Sequence record: PZ445416.1
DNA length: 50,192 nucleotides
Reading direction: 5' to 3' (one strand)
Origin: a phage
Shown: one piece after another, positions 6,106 to 43,116 of the stretch
Numbering within the stretch: the first letter of the stretch is position 1
How the letters are laid out: the number at the start of each line of letters is the position of its first letter
Program-made: the position numbers and the translations under genes
The notes under the pieces: generated by a model
What the model was told of the DNA's origin: nothing
The model's database searches: none
Seen by the model: the letters and a program-made list of their open reading frames with translations, nothing else

Positions 6106-6126
6106 CATAAAAACACTTTGACGCTT

Positions 6127-6141
6127 TAACAAAAAGTGCTA
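6127..6141 (-). promoter_or_regulatory. isolated Box-A site (reverse orientation) before major capsid gene
   Basis: Minus strand TAGCACTTTTTGTTA between paralog B stop and terminator 6150-6177; no -10 at the cassette position. Confidence 0.45.
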
Positions 6142-6149
6142 TTATTGAA

Positions 6150-25673: not shown

Positions 25674-25702
25674 GGCAATAAAAAACCGCCCGAAGGCGGT
25701 TA
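25674..25702 (-). terminator. rho-independent terminator after primase (minus strand)
   Basis: Minus strand CCGCCTTCGGGCGG hairpin then TTTTTTATT, immediately after the primase stop. Confidence 0.7.
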
Positions 25703-26635
25703 GAGTAGGTCACTTGCTGAGAATAACTTAGCTTGCATTCCTGAACGGTATCCTCCAGGATTCGGGATAATTATTTTTAATTGCCTGTCGTCAGCCATGT
25801 ATAAAGTCTCCTTATCTGAAGGTTCGCACGCCACTCTTACCTCGCGATCTCCTTTGTATCTGTACGCAACCATTTCGAGATTTTCAGGAGTGAAGCAGGC
25901 CCACACCTCTTGCTTTGTGTGAAATGCAATATGCTGAGCATCAATCCAATTAAGGCATAAGTAGATCGCTTTTTCAGTTTTACCAGTCACGGCAACCGAG
26001 CAACTTGTGTATTTCTTAGCGTAAAATGACTCCCTTCCTTCCTCATCAATAATCAAAATATTGCAAAACTCATCATCAAGACCGTCCTCGTGTACAAGTT
26101 GACATGGTATGGTGTGAAATACGCTCTCCCCGCCATCGTCGCGACGTTTTACGCCAACGTCGAATGATTCAGTAGGTAGCGACTCAAACATGCTTAGAGG
26201 CGTCTTTACGCGCTTCTCTGTGCGCTCCATGACTTTCATCACCGCTTCATGATCTGCCATCATGACATTGACACCAGATACCGGAGTTCGGCGCGCTTTC
26301 TTGTTTGCCTTGACGATGTATTCCTGCGGAACTTTTCCGAGAAATCTTCCCAATATATTTATGCATTCGCTATACGGCATACCAGTTAATTTCATCAACC
26401 AACCGATCCCGGAGTCGTTACCGCATGAGTTGCAGATTGCACCGCCGTCTCCTGGGGTATTCAGGTTGTCGGTCCAGCGAAAACGGTCTTTACCTCCACA
26501 GTTGGGGCAAGGTTGATGCTTCTTGTTGAATACCTCGTTAGGCAATCCGCAGACTGACTGAAAAGCCTCACGCCATAACCCCTTCATATACGGCAAGACG
26601 TCCTCTTTCTGAAACATCATAAACTCTTCGTTCAC
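25700..26635 (-). CDS. DNA primase
   Basis: N-terminal zinc-binding motif CPNCGG...CNSCG followed by a Toprim-like acidic region; adjacent to helicase. Confidence 0.65.
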   Translation of the reverse strand: MNEEFMMFQKEDVLPYMKGLWREAFQSVCGLPNEVFNKKHQPCPNCGGKDRFRWTDNLNTPGDGGAICNSCGNDSGIGWLMKLTGMPYSECINILGRFLGKVPQEYIVKANKKARRTPVSGVNVMMADHEAVMKVMERTEKRVKTPLSMFESLPTESFDVGVKRRDDGGESVFHTIPCQLVHEDGLDDEFCNILIIDEEGRESFYAKKYTSCSVAVTGKTEKAIYLCLNWIDAQHIAFHTKQEVWACFTPENLEMVAYRYKGDREVRVACEPSDKETLYMADDRQLKIIIPNPGGYRSGMQAKLFSASDLL

Positions 26636-26651: not shown

Positions 26652-26696
26652 AAAAAACGCGTAGAAGGATGTTAACCCGCTACGCGTCGTTTGTTT
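26652..26696 (-). terminator. terminator/attenuator-like hairpin between HTH gene and primase
   Basis: Minus strand stem CGCGTAG / CTACGCG with 15-nt loop followed by TTTTTTA; long loop makes it weak. Confidence 0.4.
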
Positions 26697-27148
26697 TAAC
26701 TAAAAATGCTATTCGTCGTTCCAATATCTTCCTTCTTCACGACTCGCATAAACTTCTTGTTTTTGCATCGCTTCTCAAGGCACTTTCCGTTCCCATCAAA
26801 CTTCAGATCGAATCGTAGCCATGCCGCCCGGAATCCTTTGCAACCCTGTCGGCGGTAAGCACGATGCGCTGCTTCAGCGCCTTGCCATGAAATCATATTG
26901 CGATCTTTCCAGCCTTGCACCGTCTGATTGCTAACTTTTAGAGCCTTTGCGCAGGCCGCAGGACCACCGTAATATTCGATAAGAGCATCCAATCGCGCTC
27001 TCAGTCCTGCGCGCGTTTCTTCTTTATGGATATAAAATCCGCAGCGCTGGCGAGGCTTTTTATCTTTACCGCGTCGTGTTCCGTTGTTACCATTGATGTG
27101 ACGTTTATCGATTTCACCAGTAGACTCTGCGATACGTTTCATATTCAT
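26696..27148 (-). CDS. HTH DNA-binding protein (YdaS/Cro-like)
   Basis: Start moved to MNMKR after AGGAG; segment GGPAACAKALKVSNQTVQGWK resembles YdaS/XRE-type helix-turn-helix; basic N-terminus. Confidence 0.5.
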   Translation of the reverse strand: MNMKRIAESTGEIDKRHINGNNGTRRGKDKKPRQRCGFYIHKEETRAGLRARLDALIEYYGGPAACAKALKVSNQTVQGWKDRNMISWQGAEAAHRAYRRQGCKGFRAAWLRFDLKFDGNGKCLEKRCKNKKFMRVVKKEDIGTTNSIFS

Positions 27149-27161
27149 CTTAATTCTCCTG

Positions 27162-27204
27162 TAGCACTTTTTGCTAAAAACGTTTACTGTATGCCGTGTA
27201 TTAT
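27162..27204 (+). promoter_or_regulatory. Box-A cassette (putative phage promoter/operator) upstream of helicase
   Basis: TAGCACTTTTTGCTA, 22 bp, TATTAT; in the divergent gap between the HTH gene and helicase. Confidence 0.6.
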
Positions 27205-27242
27205 ATCGTAAACGATACAACGATTCAAAGGATTAAATAGCC

Positions 27243-29261
27243 GTGACAATTAACATCAAAAAGCAAATCGCATTACTTGGCGAGGACTATATAAAACGCA
27301 CTCAAGAACGATTCACTGTTGGTGAGGTCGTTCCGTATCCGTACCAGGTTGTTGCTTATGCTGAGATCGCAAAACGCCTATCAAATTATGAGCATCCATT
27401 CTTTGTTAAAGCGTCAGTATCGGCGGGTAAGACCATCATTTTTGCTATGGTTGCAAAGCAGTGTCAAAAAATGGGCTTGAAAATGCTTGTGCTGGCACGC
27501 CAGGGTGAGATTGTCGATCAGGATAGTGAAGAGATCGACAATTTCGGGGTGACTAACTCTATATTCTCAGCGTCACTTGGAATCAAGTCTTGCTACTTCC
27601 CGATCGTGGTAGGCTCTGAGGGTACTGTTGCAAATGGTTTAAATAATGAGCTAGCTGATTTTGTCCCTCACGTAATCGGGATAGATGAATGTCACCAGGT
27701 GGATTGGGAAGACCTTGCACAAGCCATAGATGGCAAGGAAACGATGGAACAGATGCGGGAAGAGAAGGGAAAAATCATTATGGAAGGGGGGATTTCTCTG
27801 ATTGGTAATGATGGGAAGCCTTTACTTGGAACTAAGCGAAGCCAGTACACGATCGTAATAATGGAGATGATGCGTCGCTGTAAAGAGGTTCACGGGCATG
27901 ACCTAAGAATATTTGGTATGACGGGATCTGAATTTCGCGGCGTTGTTCCTATTCTTGTTGAGAATCCAAAGGCGTTAGGATTCTGGCGCGAGCGCGTTAC
28001 TGATATTGACACCAACTACCTCATTGAGTTTGGCTCTGTCGTTCCGACGATATTCGGTTCAACGGATGGCGCTCACTACGATCTGGATAAGTTCAAAGCG
28101 TCAAGCGAGGACGGCGTTCAGGACTTTACAGAGAAAGATATGAAAGCGATGGAAGATGAAATTCTTCATGACAAATCTCTGACTCAGCGAATCATGCAAA
28201 TGGTCGCCAAAAAGGCTGAAGAGCGCAACGCGGTCCTGATTACATGTGCCGGGGTGCGTCACTGTAAAGAGGCAGCGGCGGCACTTCCTCCAGGAAGCAC
28301 CTATGCAATCATCACTGGAGATACAGACACCAAAACTCGCAAGAAGATTCTGGACGATGTGAGGTCCGGGAAGATTAAATACACCTTTCAGGTAATGGCT
28401 CTCACGACTGGCGTTAACGTTCCAAATTGGGATTTCAGTGTCATACTTCGCAAAATAGGATCACTCACGCTGTTGATTCAACTTTTGGGTAGGGGTATGC
28501 GATTGCTTAAATCCTGGCAGGTTGCTGAAGGAATGGTTAAGCAAGATCATCTTGTATGGGATTTCGCTGGCACTATGGATGAGTTGGGGCAACTTTATTT
28601 CGATCCTATACTTGAGCAGGCTCAATTCCAAAAGCGTTTTGAAAATGGCAAAGACCCGAAAACGTGTCCGAAGTGTGGTTGCGTAAATAGCTTCTACGCT
28701 CGCCGATGCGTTAACGTTATCGATGGTGAGCGTTGTGATCATTTCTGGACTTCTCAGATTTGCGAGGACCAGGTGGATGAGCGAACCGGGAAAATCCTTG
28801 TCAAAGGGTGTGGTGCCGAGAATGACGTTGTCGCCCGAGTTTGTCGTTGCTGTGATGTGTCACTTGTCGATCCTAACCTGAAATTGTCCGGCAAGGCGTA
28901 CACCAAGAATGACTGGTACGAGGTAAAGAATTTTGAGGTAACGCTAACCAAAAACCAAAAGGGTGTGATATACAAATACACACTGATTAACGATGATGGT
29001 GATGAGTTCAAGGCGTATGAAAAGTTCTTCCCCGAGTCTGACTCTAAGATTTGCGGTACACTATGGAAAACTAAAGGTGTATTGCCACACGTATCAGATC
29101 CTAAAATGCGCCGCTACTTTATCGGAATGAAGAACGCCATCAAGATCGTGCAATACGCACATCATATTGCTCACCCGGTGCGCGTAACTCATCGTCGCAA
29201 CCAGAAGAAAGAAGATATTATTAGTCGGAAGGATTTTGGAATGGAGGATATCCCGGAATGA
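27243..29261 (+). CDS. DExH-box DNA helicase
   Basis: GTG start; Walker A SAGKTII and motif II GIDECHQ; C-terminal Cys clusters (CPKCGC, CRCC) suggest a zinc finger. Confidence 0.8.
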   Translation: MTINIKKQIALLGEDYIKRTQERFTVGEVVPYPYQVVAYAEIAKRLSNYEHPFFVKASVSAGKTIIFAMVAKQCQKMGLKMLVLARQGEIVDQDSEEIDNFGVTNSIFSASLGIKSCYFPIVVGSEGTVANGLNNELADFVPHVIGIDECHQVDWEDLAQAIDGKETMEQMREEKGKIIMEGGISLIGNDGKPLLGTKRSQYTIVIMEMMRRCKEVHGHDLRIFGMTGSEFRGVVPILVENPKALGFWRERVTDIDTNYLIEFGSVVPTIFGSTDGAHYDLDKFKASSEDGVQDFTEKDMKAMEDEILHDKSLTQRIMQMVAKKAEERNAVLITCAGVRHCKEAAAALPPGSTYAIITGDTDTKTRKKILDDVRSGKIKYTFQVMALTTGVNVPNWDFSVILRKIGSLTLLIQLLGRGMRLLKSWQVAEGMVKQDHLVWDFAGTMDELGQLYFDPILEQAQFQKRFENGKDPKTCPKCGCVNSFYARRCVNVIDGERCDHFWTSQICEDQVDERTGKILVKGCGAENDVVARVCRCCDVSLVDPNLKLSGKAYTKNDWYEVKNFEVTLTKNQKGVIYKYTLINDDGDEFKAYEKFFPESDSKICGTLWKTKGVLPHVSDPKMRRYFIGMKNAIKIVQYAHHIAHPVRVTHRRNQKKEDIISRKDFGMEDIPE

Positions 29262-29674
29262 TTACAGACAAAGGCGATTATTTGGAGTTTTACGAACGAG
29301 ATCCCAGTGATACGCGAAAGGAGGATGCGCACCAGGTAGATTGCGTGTCCTGGCTGAAATACAATTTCCCACACCTTCTATTTTGGCACACTGTCAATGA
29401 AGGTGAAAAAACAATCACTTCAGCACTCAGGGATGAGCAGGCTGGATTACTTAAAGGTGTGTCAGATTTCGTTATCCTGATTGGTGTTAACTCACGATAC
29501 CCGTTTGCAGCAATAGAACTCAAACGGGTTAATAAGTCAGGCAAAGGAAAGGCGTCACCAGTCAGCGACAAGCAAAGGGAATTTCTCCGAAAGGTCAGGG
29601 AGCGTGGCGGCTTCCCCGCCGTCGCATACGGATTTGAGCAATTCAAGGTCGCAATTTACGAATTGATGAAATAG
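29258..29674 (+). CDS. VRR-NUC domain nuclease
   Basis: 138 aa with D...ELK-type catalytic pattern (VSDFVI, AAIELKR) typical of VRR-NUC; coupled to helicase stop. Confidence 0.65.
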   Translation: MITDKGDYLEFYERDPSDTRKEDAHQVDCVSWLKYNFPHLLFWHTVNEGEKTITSALRDEQAGLLKGVSDFVILIGVNSRYPFAAIELKRVNKSGKGKASPVSDKQREFLRKVRERGGFPAVAYGFEQFKVAIYELMK

Positions 29675-29714
29675 CACTTTTTGTTAAAACTGCTGGAATG
29701 GAATCTGGCATTAT
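29672..29714 (+). promoter_or_regulatory. Box-A cassette upstream of dam
   Basis: TAGCACTTTTTGTTA, 22 bp, CATTAT; TAG is the stop codon of the VRR-NUC gene. Confidence 0.6.
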
Positions 29715-34154: not shown

Positions 34155-34168
34155 GCCTCCTTTCTTTT
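34138..34168. terminator. bidirectional terminator at lysis cassette end
   Basis: AAAAAAA, GGAGGCGTAAGCCTCC hairpin, TTTCTTTT; between convergent spanin and minus-strand early genes. Confidence 0.6.
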
Positions 34169-34382
34169 ATGCATCATCCCACATGTAACTTTCGTTCGTG
34201 AGTTTTGCGTATTCGCGAACTTCAATCTCACAGGTGTCTCCGTACATCTCAGCGACCTTCTTCTCGTTCGCTACCGCCGTTTCTTCATCCCATCCATCAG
34301 CCTTGCTGTAAATGGTAGGAATCTCACTGCTAGTGCCGTTAGAGTGGTTGTAAACGCGAACTACTAAAAATTTGTTAGCCAT
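34167..34382 (-). CDS. hypothetical protein
   Basis: Start moved to MANKF after AAGGAAAG; downstream of Box-A cassette 34420-34462. Confidence 0.5.
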   Translation of the reverse strand: MANKFLVVRVYNHSNGTSSEIPTIYSKADGWDEETAVANEKKVAEMYGDTCEIEVREYAKLTNESYMWDDA

Positions 34383-34419
34383 GATGCTTTCCTTCAGGTC
34401 GTTTCGTTTCGATGAAACA

Positions 34420-34462
34420 AATATACCCGATACGAGATCGGGTGTTTTAACAAAAAGTGCTA
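34420..34462 (-). promoter_or_regulatory. Box-A cassette (minus strand)
   Basis: Minus strand TAGCACTTTTTGTTA, 22 bp with IR CCCGAT/ATCGGG, TATATT, leader CATCGAAACGAAACGA. Confidence 0.6.
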
Positions 34463-34571
34463 TTTGTACCTTTTTACGTGAAGTAGCAACTCCCCCTCCT
34501 GGTCGCAAAGATTATGCTCGCTTTCGTTACTAGCCCTCATTGAAGTGAGTAACAGACTCAACAACCCTTGC

Positions 34572-34979
34572 TCAAATTCTTCTTTCGTAAGCTGGAGCCT
34601 TGCGCACAATTCGACGTTCTGATCTATCAATGTTTCTACGTTCGCCAAACAAATCTTCATCACTCATCTCTCCAATGTGCATCATTTCCCACGTATACCG
34701 ATTGTTGTAGCCATCAATACACATCAGCTTCATCATTACAGGGCGCTTAATCTTTCCCTTGCACCAGTAAAACCCATCCTTGCAATCAAGATAACCCTCA
34801 GTCACGCAGCGCGCGCAAAACTCCTTAGATAGCGCGCTTGTAAATTCACGGCGAGTCATTCCGGCGGCCTTAGCAAATCGCTCACTTTCCTTGTGGGCGT
34901 ATATAAATTTCGCTATGTGCTGTCGAGTGTATTTGTCGTAACCTTCGCAGAACCTGAACAGATCTAAAAGAAGAAGCAT
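34572..34979 (-). CDS. hypothetical Cys-rich protein
   Basis: 135 aa; Cys cluster CARCVTEGYLDCKDGFYWCKG; start lies 5 nt after the stop of the upstream P-loop gene. Confidence 0.5.
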   Translation of the reverse strand: MLLLLDLFRFCEGYDKYTRQHIAKFIYAHKESERFAKAAGMTRREFTSALSKEFCARCVTEGYLDCKDGFYWCKGKIKRPVMMKLMCIDGYNNRYTWEMMHIGEMSDEDLFGERRNIDRSERRIVRKAPAYERRI

Positions 34980-34983
34980 ATTA

Positions 34984-36552
34984 TTAACCCATCAGTCGAG
35001 GATTGATGAAAACAATATCATCAATCCGGCAAGTGTAGTTCATCTCTTCGAGCGTTATCAGCAGGCTGTCGATTCGCTCAGATACTTTCTGTTGACCGTT
35101 GAACGGCGTAACGTTACGGCACTTTGCAACAATGCTATGAATCGGAGCGCGCCCTTTATTCTTCTTTGCGATCTCAGTGATAACATCAATCAGCTTACGA
35201 GATTCAGCCTCATCACCAGCATACCCGGCGGCGCTTGCGGACGACAGATAAGTCCTGGAAAGCTCATTGAAAATCATAATCGCTTCCTGCATTGTCTCAA
35301 GATCAATCTCACGATTAGATCGGTTCGGTGATTCACCCTCCCAATTCTTGATCGTGTGAAGAACTGAAGCAATGCGCAAGGCGTGCTTATCGAACTTACC
35401 GAGATGACCGCGTAGCATTGAGTGAGAGTATTTGCCCCCGGCGGCGAAATCAGGCTCCATCGCCTGGCGAGCAAGGTTTAATTCACGCATAGCGTTACGG
35501 CTTACAGAGAGAACAACGTTGTCTTCCTTCATGATGTTGTGAACGAGTCTGTAATATTTGCTAACCAGTCCGCGATCGACTTCTTTATACAATGCATCAC
35601 CATTTTCATCACAAAGAATACGAGTACCTAAAAGCGGTTCCTCGCGAACCAATAGGAAACGCTCAGATACACCGATACCGCGCTGGCCTGCGTCCATGAT
35701 ACCCTTGATTGTTTCATCCTGCGCAATGACGCAGATCGAACCGACCGGGCAAAGAGATAAGTTGTTGTCTTGGTTTGAACGCGCGACCTCCATATGGTTT
35801 TTATCCCACGCCTTAAGGATAAGTTCGCTGTTTGATTTCTTATCAGAGCCGCCATAAGTCAGGCCGAGCAATGTGTTGATTGCTGTCGCCTCATCAGAGA
35901 TTACTGAGAAGTGACCTTGAACAGCCGCCACCTTCGCAAGACCTTCAGGTGTAGGATCTGATACAGCGAAAACAATATCAGCCATCTTCTTGATCTTTTC
36001 TTCCAGTTTTTCCTTGTCCTCGTATAGCGCTGCCGTCGTGTTACCCTTCGGGTCGTTTTTAATTTCCTTCTCGACCTGACGTAGCTGACTGGTTAAACGG
36101 ATACGTTCCTTTTTTCGCTCTTCATTCAGTCGCTGAATCTCTGCGCGCATAGGCGTAATCGCTGCGGAGTTAATCGCAGATTTACCTGTTGACGGTGGCT
36201 GGCTGATTACCATGTAAAGAGCGGTTGGTTGTTCTTCTCCGTGATATTGCACCCAAAACTTCCCGAGCATCGCGGCTGATATGCACCCAATGAAATGAGC
36301 GTACGCAGACGAAACAGGGAACTGTACAGACTCGGCCTTTGCTTTTGCATATTCGAATACCAGGTTATCGCCACCTAACGAAATCAGAGGGAACTTATCG
36401 TTGCCGCTATTGATATCGATCGGATCTTGCCAAAATGAAACTGAGTCACCATAGCTGTTTTCACGAATTGCTATCGCCACCGGATTAACTCCAGTGCTAT
36501 TGGCGATCTCAATAATCTGTTGGTAATTCAGTTTTGGCTTAATATTAAACAT
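34984..36552 (-). CDS. P-loop NTPase of unknown function
   Basis: Start moved to MFNIK after AAGGAG; Walker A-like QPPSTGKSA, then long coiled-coil and helical regions; no further family assignment possible. Confidence 0.6.
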   Translation of the reverse strand: MFNIKPKLNYQQIIEIANSTGVNPVAIAIRENSYGDSVSFWQDPIDINSGNDKFPLISLGGDNLVFEYAKAKAESVQFPVSSAYAHFIGCISAAMLGKFWVQYHGEEQPTALYMVISQPPSTGKSAINSAAITPMRAEIQRLNEERKKERIRLTSQLRQVEKEIKNDPKGNTTAALYEDKEKLEEKIKKMADIVFAVSDPTPEGLAKVAAVQGHFSVISDEATAINTLLGLTYGGSDKKSNSELILKAWDKNHMEVARSNQDNNLSLCPVGSICVIAQDETIKGIMDAGQRGIGVSERFLLVREEPLLGTRILCDENGDALYKEVDRGLVSKYYRLVHNIMKEDNVVLSVSRNAMRELNLARQAMEPDFAAGGKYSHSMLRGHLGKFDKHALRIASVLHTIKNWEGESPNRSNREIDLETMQEAIMIFNELSRTYLSSASAAGYAGDEAESRKLIDVITEIAKKNKGRAPIHSIVAKCRNVTPFNGQQKVSERIDSLLITLEEMNYTCRIDDIVFINPRLMG

Positions 36553-36581: not shown

Positions 36582-36624
36582 ATGATACACCGCCAATGGT
36601 ACACGCGTTTTGCAAAAAGTGCTA
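36582..36624 (-). promoter_or_regulatory. Box-A cassette (minus strand) upstream of P-loop gene
   Basis: Minus strand TAGCACTTTTTGCAA, 22 bp, TATCAT, IR GGTGTA/TACACC. Confidence 0.55.
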
Positions 36625-36628
36625 TTGG

Positions 36629-39130: not shown

Positions 39131-39173
39131 ATTATGCCAAATCACACCGATCGAGTTTTAACAAAAAGTGCTA
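39131..39173 (-). promoter_or_regulatory. Box-A cassette (minus strand)
   Basis: Minus strand TAGCACTTTTTGTTA (stop of the methyltransferase-like gene inside box), 22 bp, CATAAT, leader CCTCATCGAAACGAGA. Confidence 0.6.
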
Positions 39174-39862
39174 TCCGCGATCGCTTTAAAAAATCCCCTG
39201 GGTGATAGGGATCGTATCAACTTAGTTTTGGCAGATTTGCCGCCTAGCTTGCTGTGCTGCGCAGAGTACCCGTCAGGCAGGCTTACAGGTTTTCTTTCAG
39301 GCATGACAAAATCGTCAGAGGTCCACAGACAAGTTTTCTTCGGGTAAGCATCGCGCGGCGCAATATACATAGGGAACCAGGGATGCGCGTCATTCTCAGG
39401 AAGATAGCCGCCATACTCCCAGGGATTGAAGGAGTGATTTGGTTTTCTCCACACAGACGACAGGACGCTAACCGGATTCTCAATGATGTAAGTCACACCC
39501 AGGCTATCGCCAATGTTCGCGGCAATCCTTGCGGTGGCAACGGCCTTTTCCTGGAATAACGGATCGCGTTCACGCTTTCTTGCGAAGTGGGCGGCACCGC
39601 TAACAGCCAGGTCGGTACACGGAGGGAAAGCCATAATGAAATCCGGCTTGCCATACACACCAGCGATAGCATCACGCTCAAACGCTGCGTCAATGAACAC
39701 GTTCACATACTCAATGTTCGGATGCTCCACCCGGGCATTGTACTTTGCATAATCCCCGTGATCGGCTCCGTCAAAGTTGAAGCACATCACCTTGTGACCT
39801 TGCTTAGCCAGTTCATGACCAGCAAGACCGGAACCGTCGAATAGCGACCAGATTAATTTCAT
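39158..39862 (-). CDS. C5-cytosine methyltransferase-like protein
   Basis: Start moved to MKLIW after AGGAG; motif order FDGSG (I), FPPCTDLAVSG (IV, Thr in place of the usual Gln), IIENP (VI); short at 234 aa. Confidence 0.55.
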   Translation of the reverse strand: MKLIWSLFDGSGLAGHELAKQGHKVMCFNFDGADHGDYAKYNARVEHPNIEYVNVFIDAAFERDAIAGVYGKPDFIMAFPPCTDLAVSGAAHFARKRERDPLFQEKAVATARIAANIGDSLGVTYIIENPVSVLSSVWRKPNHSFNPWEYGGYLPENDAHPWFPMYIAPRDAYPKKTCLWTSDDFVMPERKPVSLPDGYSAQHSKLGGKSAKTKLIRSLSPRGFFKAIADSTFC

Positions 39863-39895: not shown

Positions 39896-39939
39896 ATCAT
39901 ACACTGCCAGCCTGACCAAGTCGTTAGCAAAAAATGCTA
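39896..39939 (-). promoter_or_regulatory. Box-A cassette (minus strand) upstream of C5-methyltransferase-like gene
   Basis: Minus strand perfect palindrome TAGCATTTTTTGCTA, 23 bp, TATGAT, leader CCAATCAGTAGGAG. Confidence 0.6.
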
Positions 39940-40020
39940 TTCCAATAGTTGCTCATTATTCCACCAGTAATGGAATATCTGGAATAATTGCGATCCCGAT
40001 TGATCTCGAATGATGAAATG

Positions 40021-40090
40021 TGATTGTTGCATGATGTGCAACTGTTGATGTGATTGTTGCTTGGAATGCAATGATTGTGAGAGGGAGGAT
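40021..40090. repeat. iteron-like direct repeats and short palindromes
   Basis: 13-mer ATGTGATTGTTGC at 40028 and 40058 (30-bp register), plus palindromes TTGCATGATGTGCAA and TTGC-N6-TGCAA. Confidence 0.55.
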
Positions 40091-40129
40091 TTAGTGTTAC
40101 CCGGTTCGCCTGGTGGTCATCTCCATTTT

Positions 40130-40144
40130 TAGCAAAACGTACTA
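40130..40144 (-). promoter_or_regulatory. isolated Box-A-like site within AT-rich hub
   Basis: Plus strand TAGCAAAACGTACTA (minus strand TAGTACGTTTTGCTA); no hexamer at the cassette position. Confidence 0.4.
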
Positions 40145-40230
40145 TCGATTACACTTTAACTTGTCACGATTGTAATATTTGTCTAGAATCGCACTTGTGA
40201 CAAAATTACGCACTGTGACGCATAACAATA

Positions 40231-40300
40231 GACATATAGATATATGTATATATATAATATATATAGTGTTTTTTTTATTTATATATATAGATAATCATAT
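40231..40300. repeat. TA-rich tract with element TATATAATATATATAG (second copy)
   Basis: TATATGTATATATATAATATATATAG...ATATATATAGATAAT inside the 630-bp non-coding hub between the divergent early clusters. Confidence 0.7.
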
Positions 40301-40548
40301 TGTAATAGTTGTGTATAGCTGTCTTACATTGTCTAGCGTACTGTTGGCATATTTCTATCTGCATGTTTATATATACAGTACTTTTTTGAGAGCTATATAT
40401 TTCTATGGTTACTCTAGACAGCTAGACAAATGTTACACGGCTTAAAATTGACTCGCAGGCATTGACAGCTCTACATCACGTTGTCACAATGGCAATTGTT
40501 GACACATTATGACGCCATTTACACACAAATAGACAAAGAGGATATATT

Positions 40549-41064
40549 ATGAGCAATACCAATCAGGAATTAAAAATCACCGATATGATTCGCCTAACCT
40601 GTGATGCAATGTACCGCGACAAAGGCATGACCGAGTTCTCTTTCGTGGCTGATGATATGGCCCTAGAAGCAGCGCGATTCTACTTCCGTGGCCAGGAGGT
40701 AAGCGATGCCGATCTTGAATCTGCCGCTGCCGGATGGGTGGACCAGAACCAGGGGGAGGTAGAGAAGCGATTCAAATCTGCTTTCATCACTCCAATCATT
40801 ACCCGACACTTTTGCAAGTATGGCAAGGTGGCAAAGGTGAAGGTAGGCCGGAATGACGCGGCAATCACGATGATAACCGTTATCGTTACAGACGAAGAGG
40901 TTCCAGTGAAGAAACGCCGTAGCCGGAAAAAAGTTAGCCTGGCCGACTGCCTGGACTCGTTTGATGTTGATGTTAGCAAGCTATCAGATAGCGAGTTAAT
41001 GGTTCGTGATGTGAATGAGATCGTGCGCCAGATGAAAGCGCATATTGAAAAGTGTGGACTGTAA
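40549..41064 (+). CDS. hypothetical protein (first gene of rightward early cluster)
   Basis: 171 aa, RBS AAAGAGGA, directly downstream of the AT-rich hub. Confidence 0.5.
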   Translation: MSNTNQELKITDMIRLTCDAMYRDKGMTEFSFVADDMALEAARFYFRGQEVSDADLESAAAGWVDQNQGEVEKRFKSAFITPIITRHFCKYGKVAKVKVGRNDAAITMITVIVTDEEVPVKKRRSRKKVSLADCLDSFDVDVSKLSDSELMVRDVNEIVRQMKAHIEKCGL

Positions 41065-41070
41065 GGAGAG

Positions 41071-41316
41071 ATGAGTATGAGCAAGATTAAGCATGACGCC
41101 CTGAAAGGTATCTTGATGCGACTAAACCCAGGCGAAGCATTCCAGCTTAACCCCGAGACGTTTGGATTCAATGGTGATTATCGTACAACCTTCGAATTTG
41201 TAAGGTATGTAAAGAAAGAGTTTGGATTCGAAGTTATTCACGCAGGTCTTATCAATGGCATCCAGACATTCATCTTTAAGCCAAATGAGATTCGTTGCTT
41301 CACGATGATGAAATAG
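41071..41316 (+). CDS. hypothetical protein
   Basis: 81 aa, RBS AAGGAGAG; its stop TAG is the first triplet of Box A at 41314. Confidence 0.5.
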   Translation: MSMSKIKHDALKGILMRLNPGEAFQLNPETFGFNGDYRTTFEFVRYVKKEFGFEVIHAGLINGIQTFIFKPNEIRCFTMMK

Positions 41317-41356
41317 CACTTTTTGTTAAAGCCCGGTCGAGCGGATCGGGTATTAT
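41314..41356 (+). promoter_or_regulatory. Box-A cassette
   Basis: TAGCACTTTTTGTTA, 22 bp, TATTAT, leader CATCGACACGATACAGAGGA. Confidence 0.6.
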
Positions 41357-42884: not shown

Positions 42885-43076
42885 ATGGCTGACTTTATGC
42901 ACCAAATGATTGCAGTATTCAAAGGTAGCGAAGATGAGGAAGTAAAAGAGTGCTTTACTGTCGACAAGCCTTATAACGCTTCTCTGACCAGCTTCGGTAA
43001 CATCTCATTGCTTGATGATAATGGCGACCCCTGGGTATTCGATGAAGATACGGATTGCTTCGAAATTAAAGAATAG
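42885..43076 (+). CDS. hypothetical acidic protein
   Basis: Start at MADFMHQ after AGAGG; stop TAG is the first triplet of Box A at 43074. Confidence 0.5.
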   Translation: MADFMHQMIAVFKGSEDEEVKECFTVDKPYNASLTSFGNISLLDDNGDPWVFDEDTDCFEIKE

Positions 43077-43116
43077 CACTTTTTGTTAAAACGCGATCAT
43101 ATGGTTGCGATATAGT
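43074..43116 (+). promoter_or_regulatory. Box-A cassette
   Basis: TAGCACTTTTTGTTA, 22 bp, TATAGT, leader CACATCAACAACGAATGAGGA. Confidence 0.6.

What the first reader, a model, noticed from the sequence alone, without database searches (positions are those of the whole stretch)
34572..36552. Large P-loop protein translationally coupled to a Cys-rich partner
The 523-aa protein has a single Walker A-like motif (QPPSTGKSA) around residue 140 followed by long helical regions; its stop is 5 nt before the start of a 135-aa protein with the cluster CARCVTEGYLDCKDGFYWCKG. This is not the replicative helicase, primase or terminase, all of which are found elsewhere. A coupled ATPase plus zinc-finger-like pair is unexplained.
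Basis: partly seen in the sequence, partly recalled or inferred. Interest (0 to 1): 0.5.

Follow-up and report, generated by a model that had tools for sequence, protein, structure and literature searches.

The report
T1 phage MCM-like helicase plus winged-helix partner
The large P-loop protein is the already-annotated MCM-like (DUF3987) DNA helicase of T1-type phages, probably their replicative helicase, and its small "Cys-rich" neighbour is a basic winged-helix protein of unknown role whose cysteines are not conserved, so it is not a zinc finger.

Summary
The sequence observation holds. Two minus-strand genes, 34984-36552 (522 aa) and 34572-34979 (135 aa), are separated by 4 nt. The interpretation mostly fails.

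The window is a T1-like phage (Tunavirus), and the pair are the orthologues of T1 ST9 and ST10.

**Small protein.** It models as a basic winged helix followed by a conserved acidic D-x-E-L-F motif. The four "cluster" cysteines are retained in only 2-20 of 33 homologues. The family is confined to T1-like phages and has no assigned function.

**Linkage.** Tight spacing is common in this genome (17 of 49 junctions), but the two-gene unit is conserved across the family. The finding is ordinary for the helicase. The partner's role is open; a helicase or origin accessory factor is my inference.

The parts
34984..36552 (-). DUF3987 / MCM-like (SF6, AAA+) DNA helicase, 522 aa; orthologue of phage T1 ST9
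36175..36201 (-). Walker A / P-loop QPPSTGKSA (residues 118-126)
   Evidence: Q118, P119, P120, S121, G123 and K124 are invariant in 39 homologues down to 34% identity. The motif follows strand 113-117 and precedes a helix in the model.
35890..35904 (-). Putative Walker B VISDE (residues 217-221)
   Evidence: I218, S219 and E221 are invariant and lie at the end of strand 214-219. The assignment is by position and motif logic, not by residue-level superposition.
35656..35667 (-). SERF motif (residues 296-299), candidate arginine finger resembling the MCM 'SRF' motif
   Evidence: S296, E297 and R298 are invariant and F299 is at least 90% conserved, just before strand 299-303. The resemblance to MCM SRFD comes from my own knowledge and is an inference.
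35005..35214 (-). C-terminal winged-helix domain of the helicase (residues ~447-516)
34980..34983 (-). 4-nt spacer between the helicase stop (TAA 34984-34986) and the partner ATG (34977-34979)
   Evidence: Read directly from the sequence. There is no strong Shine-Dalgarno sequence upstream of the partner ATG, only ...GAUGGGUUAAUAAU-AUG. A small gap or a few-nt overlap is conserved across the family.
34572..34979 (-). 135-aa basic winged-helix protein; orthologue of T1 ST10 ('hypothetical protein'); PHROG 2794
34761..34925 (-). Winged-helix core of the partner (residues ~19-73): H19-28, H32-38, recognition helix H43-61, wing E64-67/E70-73
   Evidence: The core (residues 1-82) is basic in all 33 homologues, median pI 9.4.
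34755..34817 (-). The 'Cys cluster' CARCVTEGYLDCKDGFYWCKG (residues 55-75); not a conserved metal site
   Evidence: C55 is retained in 9/33, C58 in 8/33, C66 in 2/33 and C73 in 20/33 homologues. Only C11 is invariant. More divergent family members lack the cluster entirely.
34647..34664 (-). Conserved acidic-aromatic motif SDEDLF (residues 106-111); family consensus [ST]-D-[DE]-E-L-F
   Evidence: D107 and F111 are invariant and L110 is conserved in 31/33. In several genera the protein ends one residue after this motif.
36582..36625 (-). Promoter-like cassette upstream of the helicase: a copy of the family's 21-nt repeat (ATAGCACTTTTTGCAAA, 36609-36625) and a -10-like TATCAT (36582-36587) 22 nt downstream
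   Evidence: The repeat is described for TLS with unknown function (PMC11447400). No copy lies between the helicase and the partner.
34425..34463 (-). Next copy of the repeat (34447-34463) plus a terminator-like hairpin (34425-34443), marking the downstream end of the two-gene unit

Best explanation
The window is a T1-like phage genome, and the pair are the orthologues of T1 ST9 and ST10.

**Helicase (ST9 orthologue).** It is a DUF3987-family AAA+ ATPase of the MCM-related (SF6, pre-sensor-II-insert) kind. It has an N-terminal helical region, an ATPase core with Walker A (K124), a putative Walker B (D220/E221) and an SERF candidate arginine finger, and a C-terminal winged helix. I infer that it assembles into a ring and unwinds DNA at the phage replication fork. 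The stand-alone Zn-ribbon primase and the host DNA polymerase III would work with it, because T1-type phages encode no polymerase.

**Partner (ST10 orthologue).** It is a basic winged-helix protein followed by an acidic D-x-E-L-F motif. It is made from the same short transcript and is probably translated by re-initiation 4 nt after the helicase stop. Its cysteines are incidental, not a zinc site. My best guess is that it is a DNA-binding accessory of the helicase: an origin-binding or loading factor, or an adaptor to host replisome proteins through the acidic motif.

**Shown versus inferred.** Family membership, the folds, conservation of the pair and non-conservation of the cysteines are shown here. 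Ring formation, fork function, polarity, any physical complex and the partner's role are inferred.

**Approximate probabilities.**
- The large protein is a DUF3987/MCM-like helicase: 0.9.
- It is the phage's replicative helicase: 0.7.
- The partner has a winged-helix fold without structural zinc: 0.85.
- The partner acts in replication with the helicase: 0.35-0.4.
For: **Identity of the phage and genes**
- The region is about 95% identical to Shigella phages Sfin-1 and phi2457T (Tunavirus).
- The T1 record has the same pair, ST9 and ST10.

**Helicase**
- Pfam DUF3987, 3e-42; PHROG 2373 'DNA helicase', 8e-234.
- Walker A, the SDE and SERF motifs and others are invariant in 39 homologues.
- AF2 pLDDT 90.4.

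**Literature**
- DUF3987 was assigned to SF6 as distantly MCM-related, with a C-terminal wHTH, and predicted to be a replicative helicase (PMC4889955).
- The PriCT-DUF3987 protein AgaPH unwinds DNA 5'→3' and needs its Walker A and B motifs (PMC11724360).
- T1 and TLS have no DNA polymerase gene (PMC11447400).

**No rival fork helicase**
- The other helicase is SF2 RadD-like, and Pfam recognises only the Zn-ribbon domain in the primase.
- No other ORF of 300 aa or more could be one.

**Context in distant relatives**
- At 24-37% identity, in five of the six distinct distant loci the DUF3987 gene lies near the SF2 helicase. In two of them (L084, L087) it is also next to the Zn-ribbon primase and followed by exonuclease genes (with Erf in L084), and VRR-NUC follows the SF2 helicase in L082. 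The sixth, Pseudomonas phage Amjad_SA (L088), is annotated only as hypothetical proteins.

**Partner**
- AF2 pLDDT 84.6 with a helix-turn-helix plus beta-hairpin wing.
- Basic core, median pI 9.4.
- Cys cluster not conserved.
- Pair and small spacing conserved in all but 3 of 76 readable loci.
- A single promoter-like cassette precedes the pair and the next one follows it.
- A paper on a T1-like relative notes that no helicase loader or origin-binding protein has been recognised in such genomes (PMC8004638).
Against:
- **Tight spacing is uninformative alone.** It occurs at about 35% of junctions in this genome.
- **The downstream ORF is not one family.** In distant DUF3987 phages the abutting downstream small ORFs are unrelated to this partner and to each other. 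A winged-helix partner is therefore not a general requirement of DUF3987 helicases.
- **The helicase has its own winged helix.** Related mobile-element helicases such as SaPI Rep load themselves without a partner (PMC9371898).
- **No origin signal nearby.** There is no iteron array or origin-like signal next to the pair.
- **Gene location.** In Tunavirus the helicase lies about 8 kb from the primase and among small early genes, not in the replication module.
- **Motif assignments are unverified.** Walker B, sensor and arginine-finger assignments were not checked by residue-level superposition.
- **No experimental data.** No genetic or biochemical data for ST9 or ST10 were found. Profile searches against PDB sequences found nothing.
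Confidence: 0.6

Rival explanations
1. The partner is a transcription regulator rather than a replication factor. For example, it could be the protein that binds the 21-nt intergenic repeat (aaATAGCACnnnTTGnTAAAA) found before most early and middle genes of T1-like phages. Its position after the helicase would then be only conserved synteny.
For: - It has a basic winged-helix fold typical of MarR/ArsR/PadR-type regulators.
- There are 23 oriented copies of the repeat in the window against 0.5 expected. Each has a fixed 22-nt distance to a -10-like box, so there is no properly spaced -35 and an activator is plausible.
- The repeat's function is an acknowledged open question (PMC11447400).
- The repeat and the partner family co-occur: the repeat is present in T1-like loci and absent from all seven partner-less distant loci.
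Against: - The co-occurrence is fully confounded by phylogeny.
- Two T1-like loci that have the partner show no exact repeat match (L028, L047).
- The genome has other candidate DNA binders, such as the Cro-like regulator at 26696-27220.
- The partner gene itself sits behind such a repeat.
- The conserved acidic DxELF tail is not explained by this model.
Confidence: 0.22
2. The DUF3987 protein is a genuine helicase or translocase but not the fork helicase. It would act in recombination-dependent replication, repair, host-DNA takeover or counter-defence, while the phage recruits host DnaB for bulk replication.
For: - In Tunavirus the gene is remote from the primase/SF2-helicase/Erf module and is embedded among small early genes.
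- The phage relies on host enzymes for polymerisation (PMC11447400), so it could borrow DnaB as well.
- The MCM relatives MCM8/9 and ComM, which are among the structural neighbours, act in recombination.
Against: - In more distant relatives the gene sits next to the primase.
- The phage encodes its own primase, which normally pairs with a phage helicase.
- DUF3987 is repeatedly fused or adjacent to primases (PMC4889955, PMC5862659).
- AgaPH binds its primase-polymerase (PMC11724360).
Confidence: 0.15
3. The partner is an unrelated small early protein, for host takeover or anti-defence, that merely shares a mini-operon with the helicase. Its winged helix would serve protein-protein contacts, as in cullin, kleisin or ScpA winged helices.
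For: - The family is lineage-restricted, as accessory genes often are.
- Tight junctions between unrelated genes are common here.
Against: - Its presence is near-universal and its position fixed across 835 records and several subfamilies. That is more typical of core functions than of accessory ones.
- The core is uniformly basic.
Confidence: 0.13
4. One reading: a novel ATPase plus zinc-finger complex unrelated to the known replication proteins.
For: Six cysteines in 135 residues, with a CxxC-x7-C-x6-C spacing in this particular phage.
Against: - The cluster cysteines are replaced by I, L, M, S or G in most homologues.
- They map to a helix and a beta-hairpin of a winged helix, not to knuckles.
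- The ATPase has clear family membership in a helicase family.
Confidence: 0.02

Closest known systems
DUF3987 (PF13148) helicases, e.g. AgaPH (PriCT-DUF3987) of a Seonamhaeicola mobile element and the phage proteins discussed by Kazlauskas et al. 2016
   Same: Full-length match to the Pfam model. Conserved Walker A and B motifs, a C-terminal winged helix and an association with primases in related genomes. AgaPH is a Walker-dependent 5'→3' helicase that forms an oligomer (PMC11724360).
   Different: There is no PriCT or AEP primase domain. The N-terminus is a short helical region. In Tunavirus the primase is DnaG/T7-type (Zn ribbon) and about 8 kb away. Activity and polarity are untested for the T1-type protein.
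Archaeal/eukaryotic MCM (SF6) and bacterial prophage or mobile-element MCM-like helicases (Bacillus cereus BcMCM, SCCmec Cch)
   Different: There is no Pfam MCM hit and no MCM N-terminal OB/Zn domain. Sequence identity is 10-16%. A long helical hairpin (residues 122-189) follows the P-loop. MCM moves 3'→5', whereas the one tested DUF3987 member moves 5'→3'.
SaPI Rep / PriRep self-loading initiator-helicases
   Same: They are mobile-element AAA+ helicases whose C-terminal winged helix recognises the origin (PMC9371898). This is a plausible model for the helicase's own winged helix.
   Different: SaPI origins are iteron arrays immediately downstream of rep. No iterons lie near this gene. Here an extra, separate winged-helix protein is encoded downstream.
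Winged-helix helicase co-factors and initiators (Cdt1/WhiP with MCM; lambda O; SPP1 G38P)
   Same: A small DNA-binding winged-helix protein encoded next to, and possibly acting with, a replicative helicase. This is analogy only.
MarR/ArsR/PadR-type winged-helix transcription regulators
   Different: No Pfam HTH family match. There is an additional N-terminal helix and a C-terminal helical region with an acidic motif. No dimerisation helices typical of MarR are evident.

Membership tests
DUF3987 (PF13148) helicase family | Score above Pfam's gathering threshold over most of the model | tested here: met
   145.6 bits against a cut-off of 27; model positions 2-355 of 364. PHROG 2373 over the full length.
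DUF3987 (PF13148) helicase family | [quoted passage not shown] | tested here: met
   QPPSTGKS and (I)SDE columns are invariant or nearly so in 39 homologues. The motifs are described for the family in PMC11724360.
DUF3987 (PF13148) helicase family | [quoted passage not shown] | tested here: met
DUF3987 (PF13148) helicase family | Genomic association with a primase (fused or adjacent) | tested here: inconclusive
   The primase is not adjacent in this window; it lies at 25700-26635. It is adjacent in relatives at ~35% identity (L084, L087).
DUF3987 (PF13148) helicase family | ATP-dependent DNA unwinding by an oligomer | not testable with these tools
   Shown only for AgaPH (PMC11724360).
MCM proper (PF00493, SF6) | MCM AAA+ fold of the pre-sensor-II-insert clade | tested here: met
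MCM proper (PF00493, SF6) | Sequence membership (Pfam MCM) and an N-terminal OB-fold/Zn domain | tested here: not met
   No Pfam MCM or MCM_N/OB hit at E≤0.1. The N-terminal ~95 residues are helical. The protein is MCM-like but not an MCM.
DnaB/T7 gp4 (SF4, RecA-fold) replicative helicases | RecA-type core and DnaB_C homology | tested here: not met
   No Pfam or NCBIfam hit. The structural neighbours are AAA+, not RecA-fold.
Zinc finger / zinc ribbon (partner) | Four conserved Cys/His ligands in knuckle geometry | tested here: not met
Winged helix-turn-helix fold (partner) | H1-H2-turn-H3 followed by a beta-hairpin wing | tested here: met
Known helicase loaders / origin-binding proteins (DnaC, lambda O/P, SPP1 G38P/G39P, Cdt1) | Homology to one of these families | tested here: not met
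   No Pfam, NCBIfam or PDB sequence hits. The PHROG has unknown function. Any loader or origin-binding role would be by analogy only.

The most novel reading that the evidence does not exclude
ST10-type proteins could be the missing origin-binding or loading co-factor, or the host-replisome adaptor, of a bacterial-virus MCM-like helicase. In that reading, a lineage-specific winged-helix protein positions the DUF3987 ring on phage DNA. Its conserved acidic D-x-E-L-F motif would then couple the ring to host Pol III, clamp or SSB-interacting proteins in a phage that has no polymerase of its own. This would be functionally analogous to Cdt1/WhiP with MCM. A variant of the idea is that it is the long-sought binder of the enigmatic 21-nt intergenic repeats of T1-like phages.
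Probability: 0.3. Interest if true: 0.55.

Novelty: already known. Interest (0 to 1): 0.22.

Why it matters
**Helicase.** Little is new. The gene is already labelled 'DNA helicase' in RefSeq, and the family was assigned to MCM-like helicases in 2016. The useful correction concerns the T1-family literature. The DUF3987 protein is the more plausible fork helicase.

**Partner.** This is a conserved protein of unknown function in a classic model phage family, found in more than 800 sequenced phages, many of them therapy candidates. T1-like phages replicate with host polymerase, and no origin, initiator or loader is known for them. A family-wide winged-helix protein co-expressed with the helicase is therefore a cheap, testable candidate for one of these roles.

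Tried and rejected
- **PDB sequence searches.** Single-sequence and profile searches with both proteins gave only chance hits.
- **NCBIfam.** No hits for either protein.
- **Partner as a duplicate of the helicase's C-terminal winged helix.** Profile-profile comparison found nothing.
- **Downstream small ORFs of distant DUF3987 phages as homologues of the partner.** They are not. The only match is a 16-residue stretch around 'DNELF' in L084 at 2.6% probability, too weak to use.
- **Rosetta-stone fusion in Vibrio phage Vc1.** BFVD lists a 'DNA primase' of 529 aa and a 'helicase' of 345 aa that resemble the partner. The current Vc1 record has a normal, separate helicase and a 128-aa partner, so these are probably old annotation artefacts.
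- **Origin next to the gene (SaPI model).** No iteron array or local k-mer clustering beyond shuffles lies near 34-37 kb. GC skew only follows transcription direction.
- **RNA-structure-mediated translational coupling.** A long-range stem (35159-35174 with 34960-34975) appears in the MFE and centroid structures. The fold is no more stable than shuffles, z = -0.14.
- **Clamp-binding or SSB-tail mimicry by SDEDLF.** I considered this from memory of the QL[SD]LF and DDDIPF motifs. Only the L-F and the acidity match, so I kept it as speculation.
- **Literature on T1 ST9/ST10, defence-escape mutants and T1 genetics.** Nothing relevant was found.
- **afdb50 fold library.** It was unavailable.
Full report
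**1. The observation**

The region holds two minus-strand ORFs. The large one runs from ATG 36552 to TAA 34984-34986 and encodes 522 aa. It is preceded by a strong AAGGAG 9 nt upstream. From the ATG, QPPSTGKSA is residues 118-126.

The small ORF runs from ATG 34979 to 34572 and encodes 135 aa. It starts 4 nt after the helicase stop and contains CARCVTEGYLDCKDGFYWCKG at residues 55-75. The description is accurate apart from '5 nt' and the numbering.

**2. What genome this is**

The 3-kb region is about 95% identical to Shigella phages phi2457T and Sfin-1 and to many other Tunavirus (Drexlerviridae) genomes. The window is essentially a complete T1-like genome starting at the large terminase gene.

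In phage T1 itself the same genes are ST9 and ST10. ST10 is 'hypothetical protein'. The T1-length contig L009 carries a 99.6%-identical helicase and a 99.3%-identical partner.

**3. The large protein**

- **Family.** It matches Pfam DUF3987 over almost the whole model (3e-42, 145.6 bits against a cut-off of 27). It matches PHROG 2373 'DNA helicase' end to end (8e-234).
- **Conservation.** An alignment of 39 homologues down to 34% identity keeps Q118, P119, P120, S121, G123 and K124 (Walker A), I218, S219 and E221 (the VISDE strand end, putative Walker B), A277, D279 and E280, and S296, E297 and R298 (SERF).
- **Model.** The AlphaFold2 model is confident (pLDDT 90.4, pTM 0.88). It has a short N-terminal helical region and an alpha/beta ATPase core. 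A helical lid and a C-terminal winged helix (residues ~447-516) complete it.
- **Sequence-only searches.** Searches against PDB chains find nothing, so the relationship is visible only at the profile or fold level.

This agrees with the literature. Kazlauskas, Krupovic and Venclovas (2016) placed DUF3987 in SF6 as a distant MCM relative. [quoted passage not shown] A PriCT-DUF3987 protein, AgaPH, was later shown to be an oligomeric, Walker A/B-dependent 5'→3' helicase that binds its primase-polymerase (PMC11724360).

**4. Is it 'not the replicative helicase'?**

- The other helicase (27243-29261) is an SF2 ResIII/Helicase_C enzyme most similar to RadD. It is followed by a VRR-NUC nuclease in the Sfin-1 annotation.
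- The primase (25700-26635) is a stand-alone 311-aa protein in which Pfam recognises only a T7-gp4-type Zn ribbon, with no helicase domain.
- No other ORF of 300 aa or more could be a ring helicase.
- T1-type phages have no DNA polymerase gene (PMC11447400).
- In phages whose DUF3987 protein is only 24-37% identical, five of the six distinct loci place the gene near the SF2 helicase. Two of them (L084, L087) also place it next to the Zn-ribbon primase and upstream of exonuclease genes (with Erf in L084), and VRR-NUC follows the SF2 helicase in L082. The sixth, L088, carries only hypothetical proteins.

The most economical reading is that the DUF3987 protein is the phage's fork helicase. It would work with the phage primase and host Pol III. 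This remains an inference, since no genetics or biochemistry for ST9 was found. I put it at about 0.7. The main alternative is that it serves recombination or repair while host DnaB is borrowed.

**5. The small protein**

- **Distribution.** It has no Pfam, NCBIfam or PDB sequence match and belongs to PHROG 2794, function unknown. The family is small and lineage-restricted. There are 16 clusters in the 5.8-billion-protein search and only 20 representative clusters among 1.84 billion proteins with a profile search. There are 835 phage records, essentially all T1-like, nearly always 'hypothetical protein' and occasionally 'YdbL'.
- **Zinc-finger idea.** It fails on conservation. Across 33 distinct partners taken from the loci, C55 is kept in 9, C58 in 8, C66 in 2 and C73 in 20. 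The replacements are I, L, M, S or G. Only C11 is invariant. More divergent members lack the cluster altogether.
- **Charge and tail.** The winged-helix core is basic in every homologue (median pI 9.4). After it comes a conserved [ST]-D-[DE]-E-L-F motif. D107 and F111 are invariant, and in several genera the motif is almost the C-terminus.

**6. Is the pair a functional unit?**

*In favour*
- The helicase-to-partner order, with a gap of 0-7 nt or a few-nt overlap, holds in all but 3 of the 76 loci where the junction could be read, with helicase identity down to 53%.
- The partner has no strong Shine-Dalgarno sequence of its own.
- The family's promoter-like cassette occurs upstream of the helicase (36582-36625). 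It next occurs only after the partner (34447-34463, with a terminator-like hairpin), so the two genes form one mini-operon.

*Against over-reading*
- 17 of 49 same-strand junctions in Sfin-1 are equally tight.
- In distant DUF3987 phages the abutting downstream ORFs are unrelated proteins.
- The helicase has its own winged helix, and related SaPI Rep helicases self-load (PMC9371898).
- No iterons or origin-like features lie nearby.
- A predicted long-range mRNA stem covering the partner's first codons is not statistically supported (z = -0.14).
- An apparent fusion in Vibrio phage Vc1 disappeared on inspection of the current record.

**7. Mechanism proposed**

*Shown here*
- The large protein is a DUF3987 member with an MCM-like AAA+ fold and a C-terminal winged helix.
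- The partner is a basic winged-helix protein with an acidic motif and no conserved zinc site.
- The two genes form a conserved bicistronic unit.

*Inferred*
- The helicase forms a ring and drives the phage fork.
- The partner is made in a fixed ratio by re-initiation. It acts as a DNA-binding accessory, either in origin recognition or loading, or as an adaptor to host replisome proteins through the acidic motif (probability ~0.35-0.4).
- A paper on a T1-like relative notes that no loader or origin-binding protein has been recognised in these genomes (PMC8004638), which leaves room for this idea.

*Main rival*
- The partner could be a transcription factor (~0.2), possibly the binder of the 21-nt repeat aaATAGCACnnnTTGnTAAAA, whose function is an open question (PMC11447400).
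- The repeat occurs 23 times here against 0.5 expected. It always lies in the direction of transcription, 22 nt from a -10-like box with a hairpin in between.
- It is absent from the seven distant loci that lack the partner, but that correlation is confounded by phylogeny.

**8. Comparison with what is known, and novelty**

The helicase is a member of DUF3987. The Pfam threshold, the Walker motifs and the C-terminal wHTH are all met here. Primase adjacency is not met in this genus but is met in relatives. It is MCM-like in fold but not an MCM, because it has no Pfam MCM hit and no N-terminal OB/Zn domain. It is not DnaB-like. The partner has a winged-helix fold but belongs to no named family, and it is not a zinc finger.

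Identical or near-identical proteins are already in public records, and the helicase is already annotated as such. The finding is therefore 'already known' for its main component. The residual interest lies in the uncharacterised partner.

**9. Verdict**

The pair is an ordinary replication gene plus a conserved winged-helix protein of unknown role. Interest is 0.22. The most novel reading not excluded is the Cdt1-like co-factor, host-replisome adaptor or repeat binder, at about 0.3 probability with moderate interest if true.

Noticed in passing
window-wide, 23 sites, e.g. 6126-6142, 29671-29687, 34447-34463, 36609-36625, 39158-39174, 41313-41329, 43073-43089: An oriented intergenic repeat ATAGCACnnnTTGnTAA has 23 copies against 0.5 expected and nearly always lies in the direction of transcription. 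Most copies are followed by a short hairpin and a TATAGT-like box about 22 nt after TTGYTA, then a Shine-Dalgarno sequence and ATG. The 22-nt spacing is too long for a normal sigma-70 -35/-10 pair. The repeat is described for phage TLS with unknown function (PMC11447400).
   Followed up: partly
window 39920-40550: This divergent, AT-rich intergenic region lies between the leftward and rightward early gene blocks. It holds (TA)n runs, four to five CTAGACA/TAGACA copies, a tandem ATGTGATTGTTGC repeat and several inverted repeats. It is a candidate early control region or replication origin. The k-mer clustering is only marginally above shuffles.
   Followed up: partly
window 27243-29261 (+) and 25700-26635 (-): The gene usually called 'the helicase' of T1-like phages is an SF2 RadD-like enzyme (NCBIfam RadD, 1.8e-59, below the equivalog cut-off). 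It is transcribed divergently from a stand-alone Zn-ribbon primase, and a VRR-NUC gene follows it in Sfin-1. It looks like a repair or recombination helicase rather than a fork helicase.
   Followed up: partly
L082 4837-5001, L085/L086 3822-4004, L087 4123-4395, L088 3812-4057: In distant DUF3987 phages a small ORF of 54-90 aa abuts or overlaps the helicase start. In three of the loci (L082, L085, L086) it looks like a helix-turn-helix protein, supported by weak Pfam hits for L082 only. The T1-type helicase instead has three short N-terminal helices (residues 10-40) that might be a fused equivalent.
   Followed up: no
window 35986-36189 (helicase residues 122-189): A long two-helix hairpin rich in K, E and R is inserted directly after the Walker A helix of the AAA+ core. 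It falls within the span matched by the Pfam DUF3987 model. Its function is unknown; it could be an arm for partner or DNA contacts.
   Followed up: no
window 34167-34508 (-): The mechanical ORF is 113 aa from a TTG start. PHROG 27210 matches only residues 43-113 and the RefSeq homologue is 71 aa, so the real start is probably the ATG at 34382, just after a repeat cassette and hairpin.
   Followed up: partly
window 34960-34975 and 35159-35174: A 16-nt inverted repeat (88% complementary) pairs the first codons of the partner with a segment inside the helicase 3' end. It is present in the predicted MFE and centroid mRNA structures. The overall fold is no more stable than shuffles (z = -0.14).
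   Followed up: yes
L084 6551-6850: The unrelated 99-aa ORF downstream of a distant DUF3987 helicase (precomputed Pfam label T4_Y16D) ends in ...WPDNELFSEDLY. This resembles the partner's SDE(D/E)LF motif. It may be a convergent short linear motif or chance.
   Followed up: partly
BFVD entries A0A6M5CCU5 and A0A6M5CB08 (Vibrio phage Vc1); L090: UniProt/BFVD proteins named 'DNA primase' (529 aa) and 'Helicase' (345 aa) from Vc1 contain partner-like segments. The current GenBank version instead shows a normal 527-aa DUF3987 gene and a separate 128-aa partner, so these are probably artefacts of an earlier annotation.
   Followed up: yes
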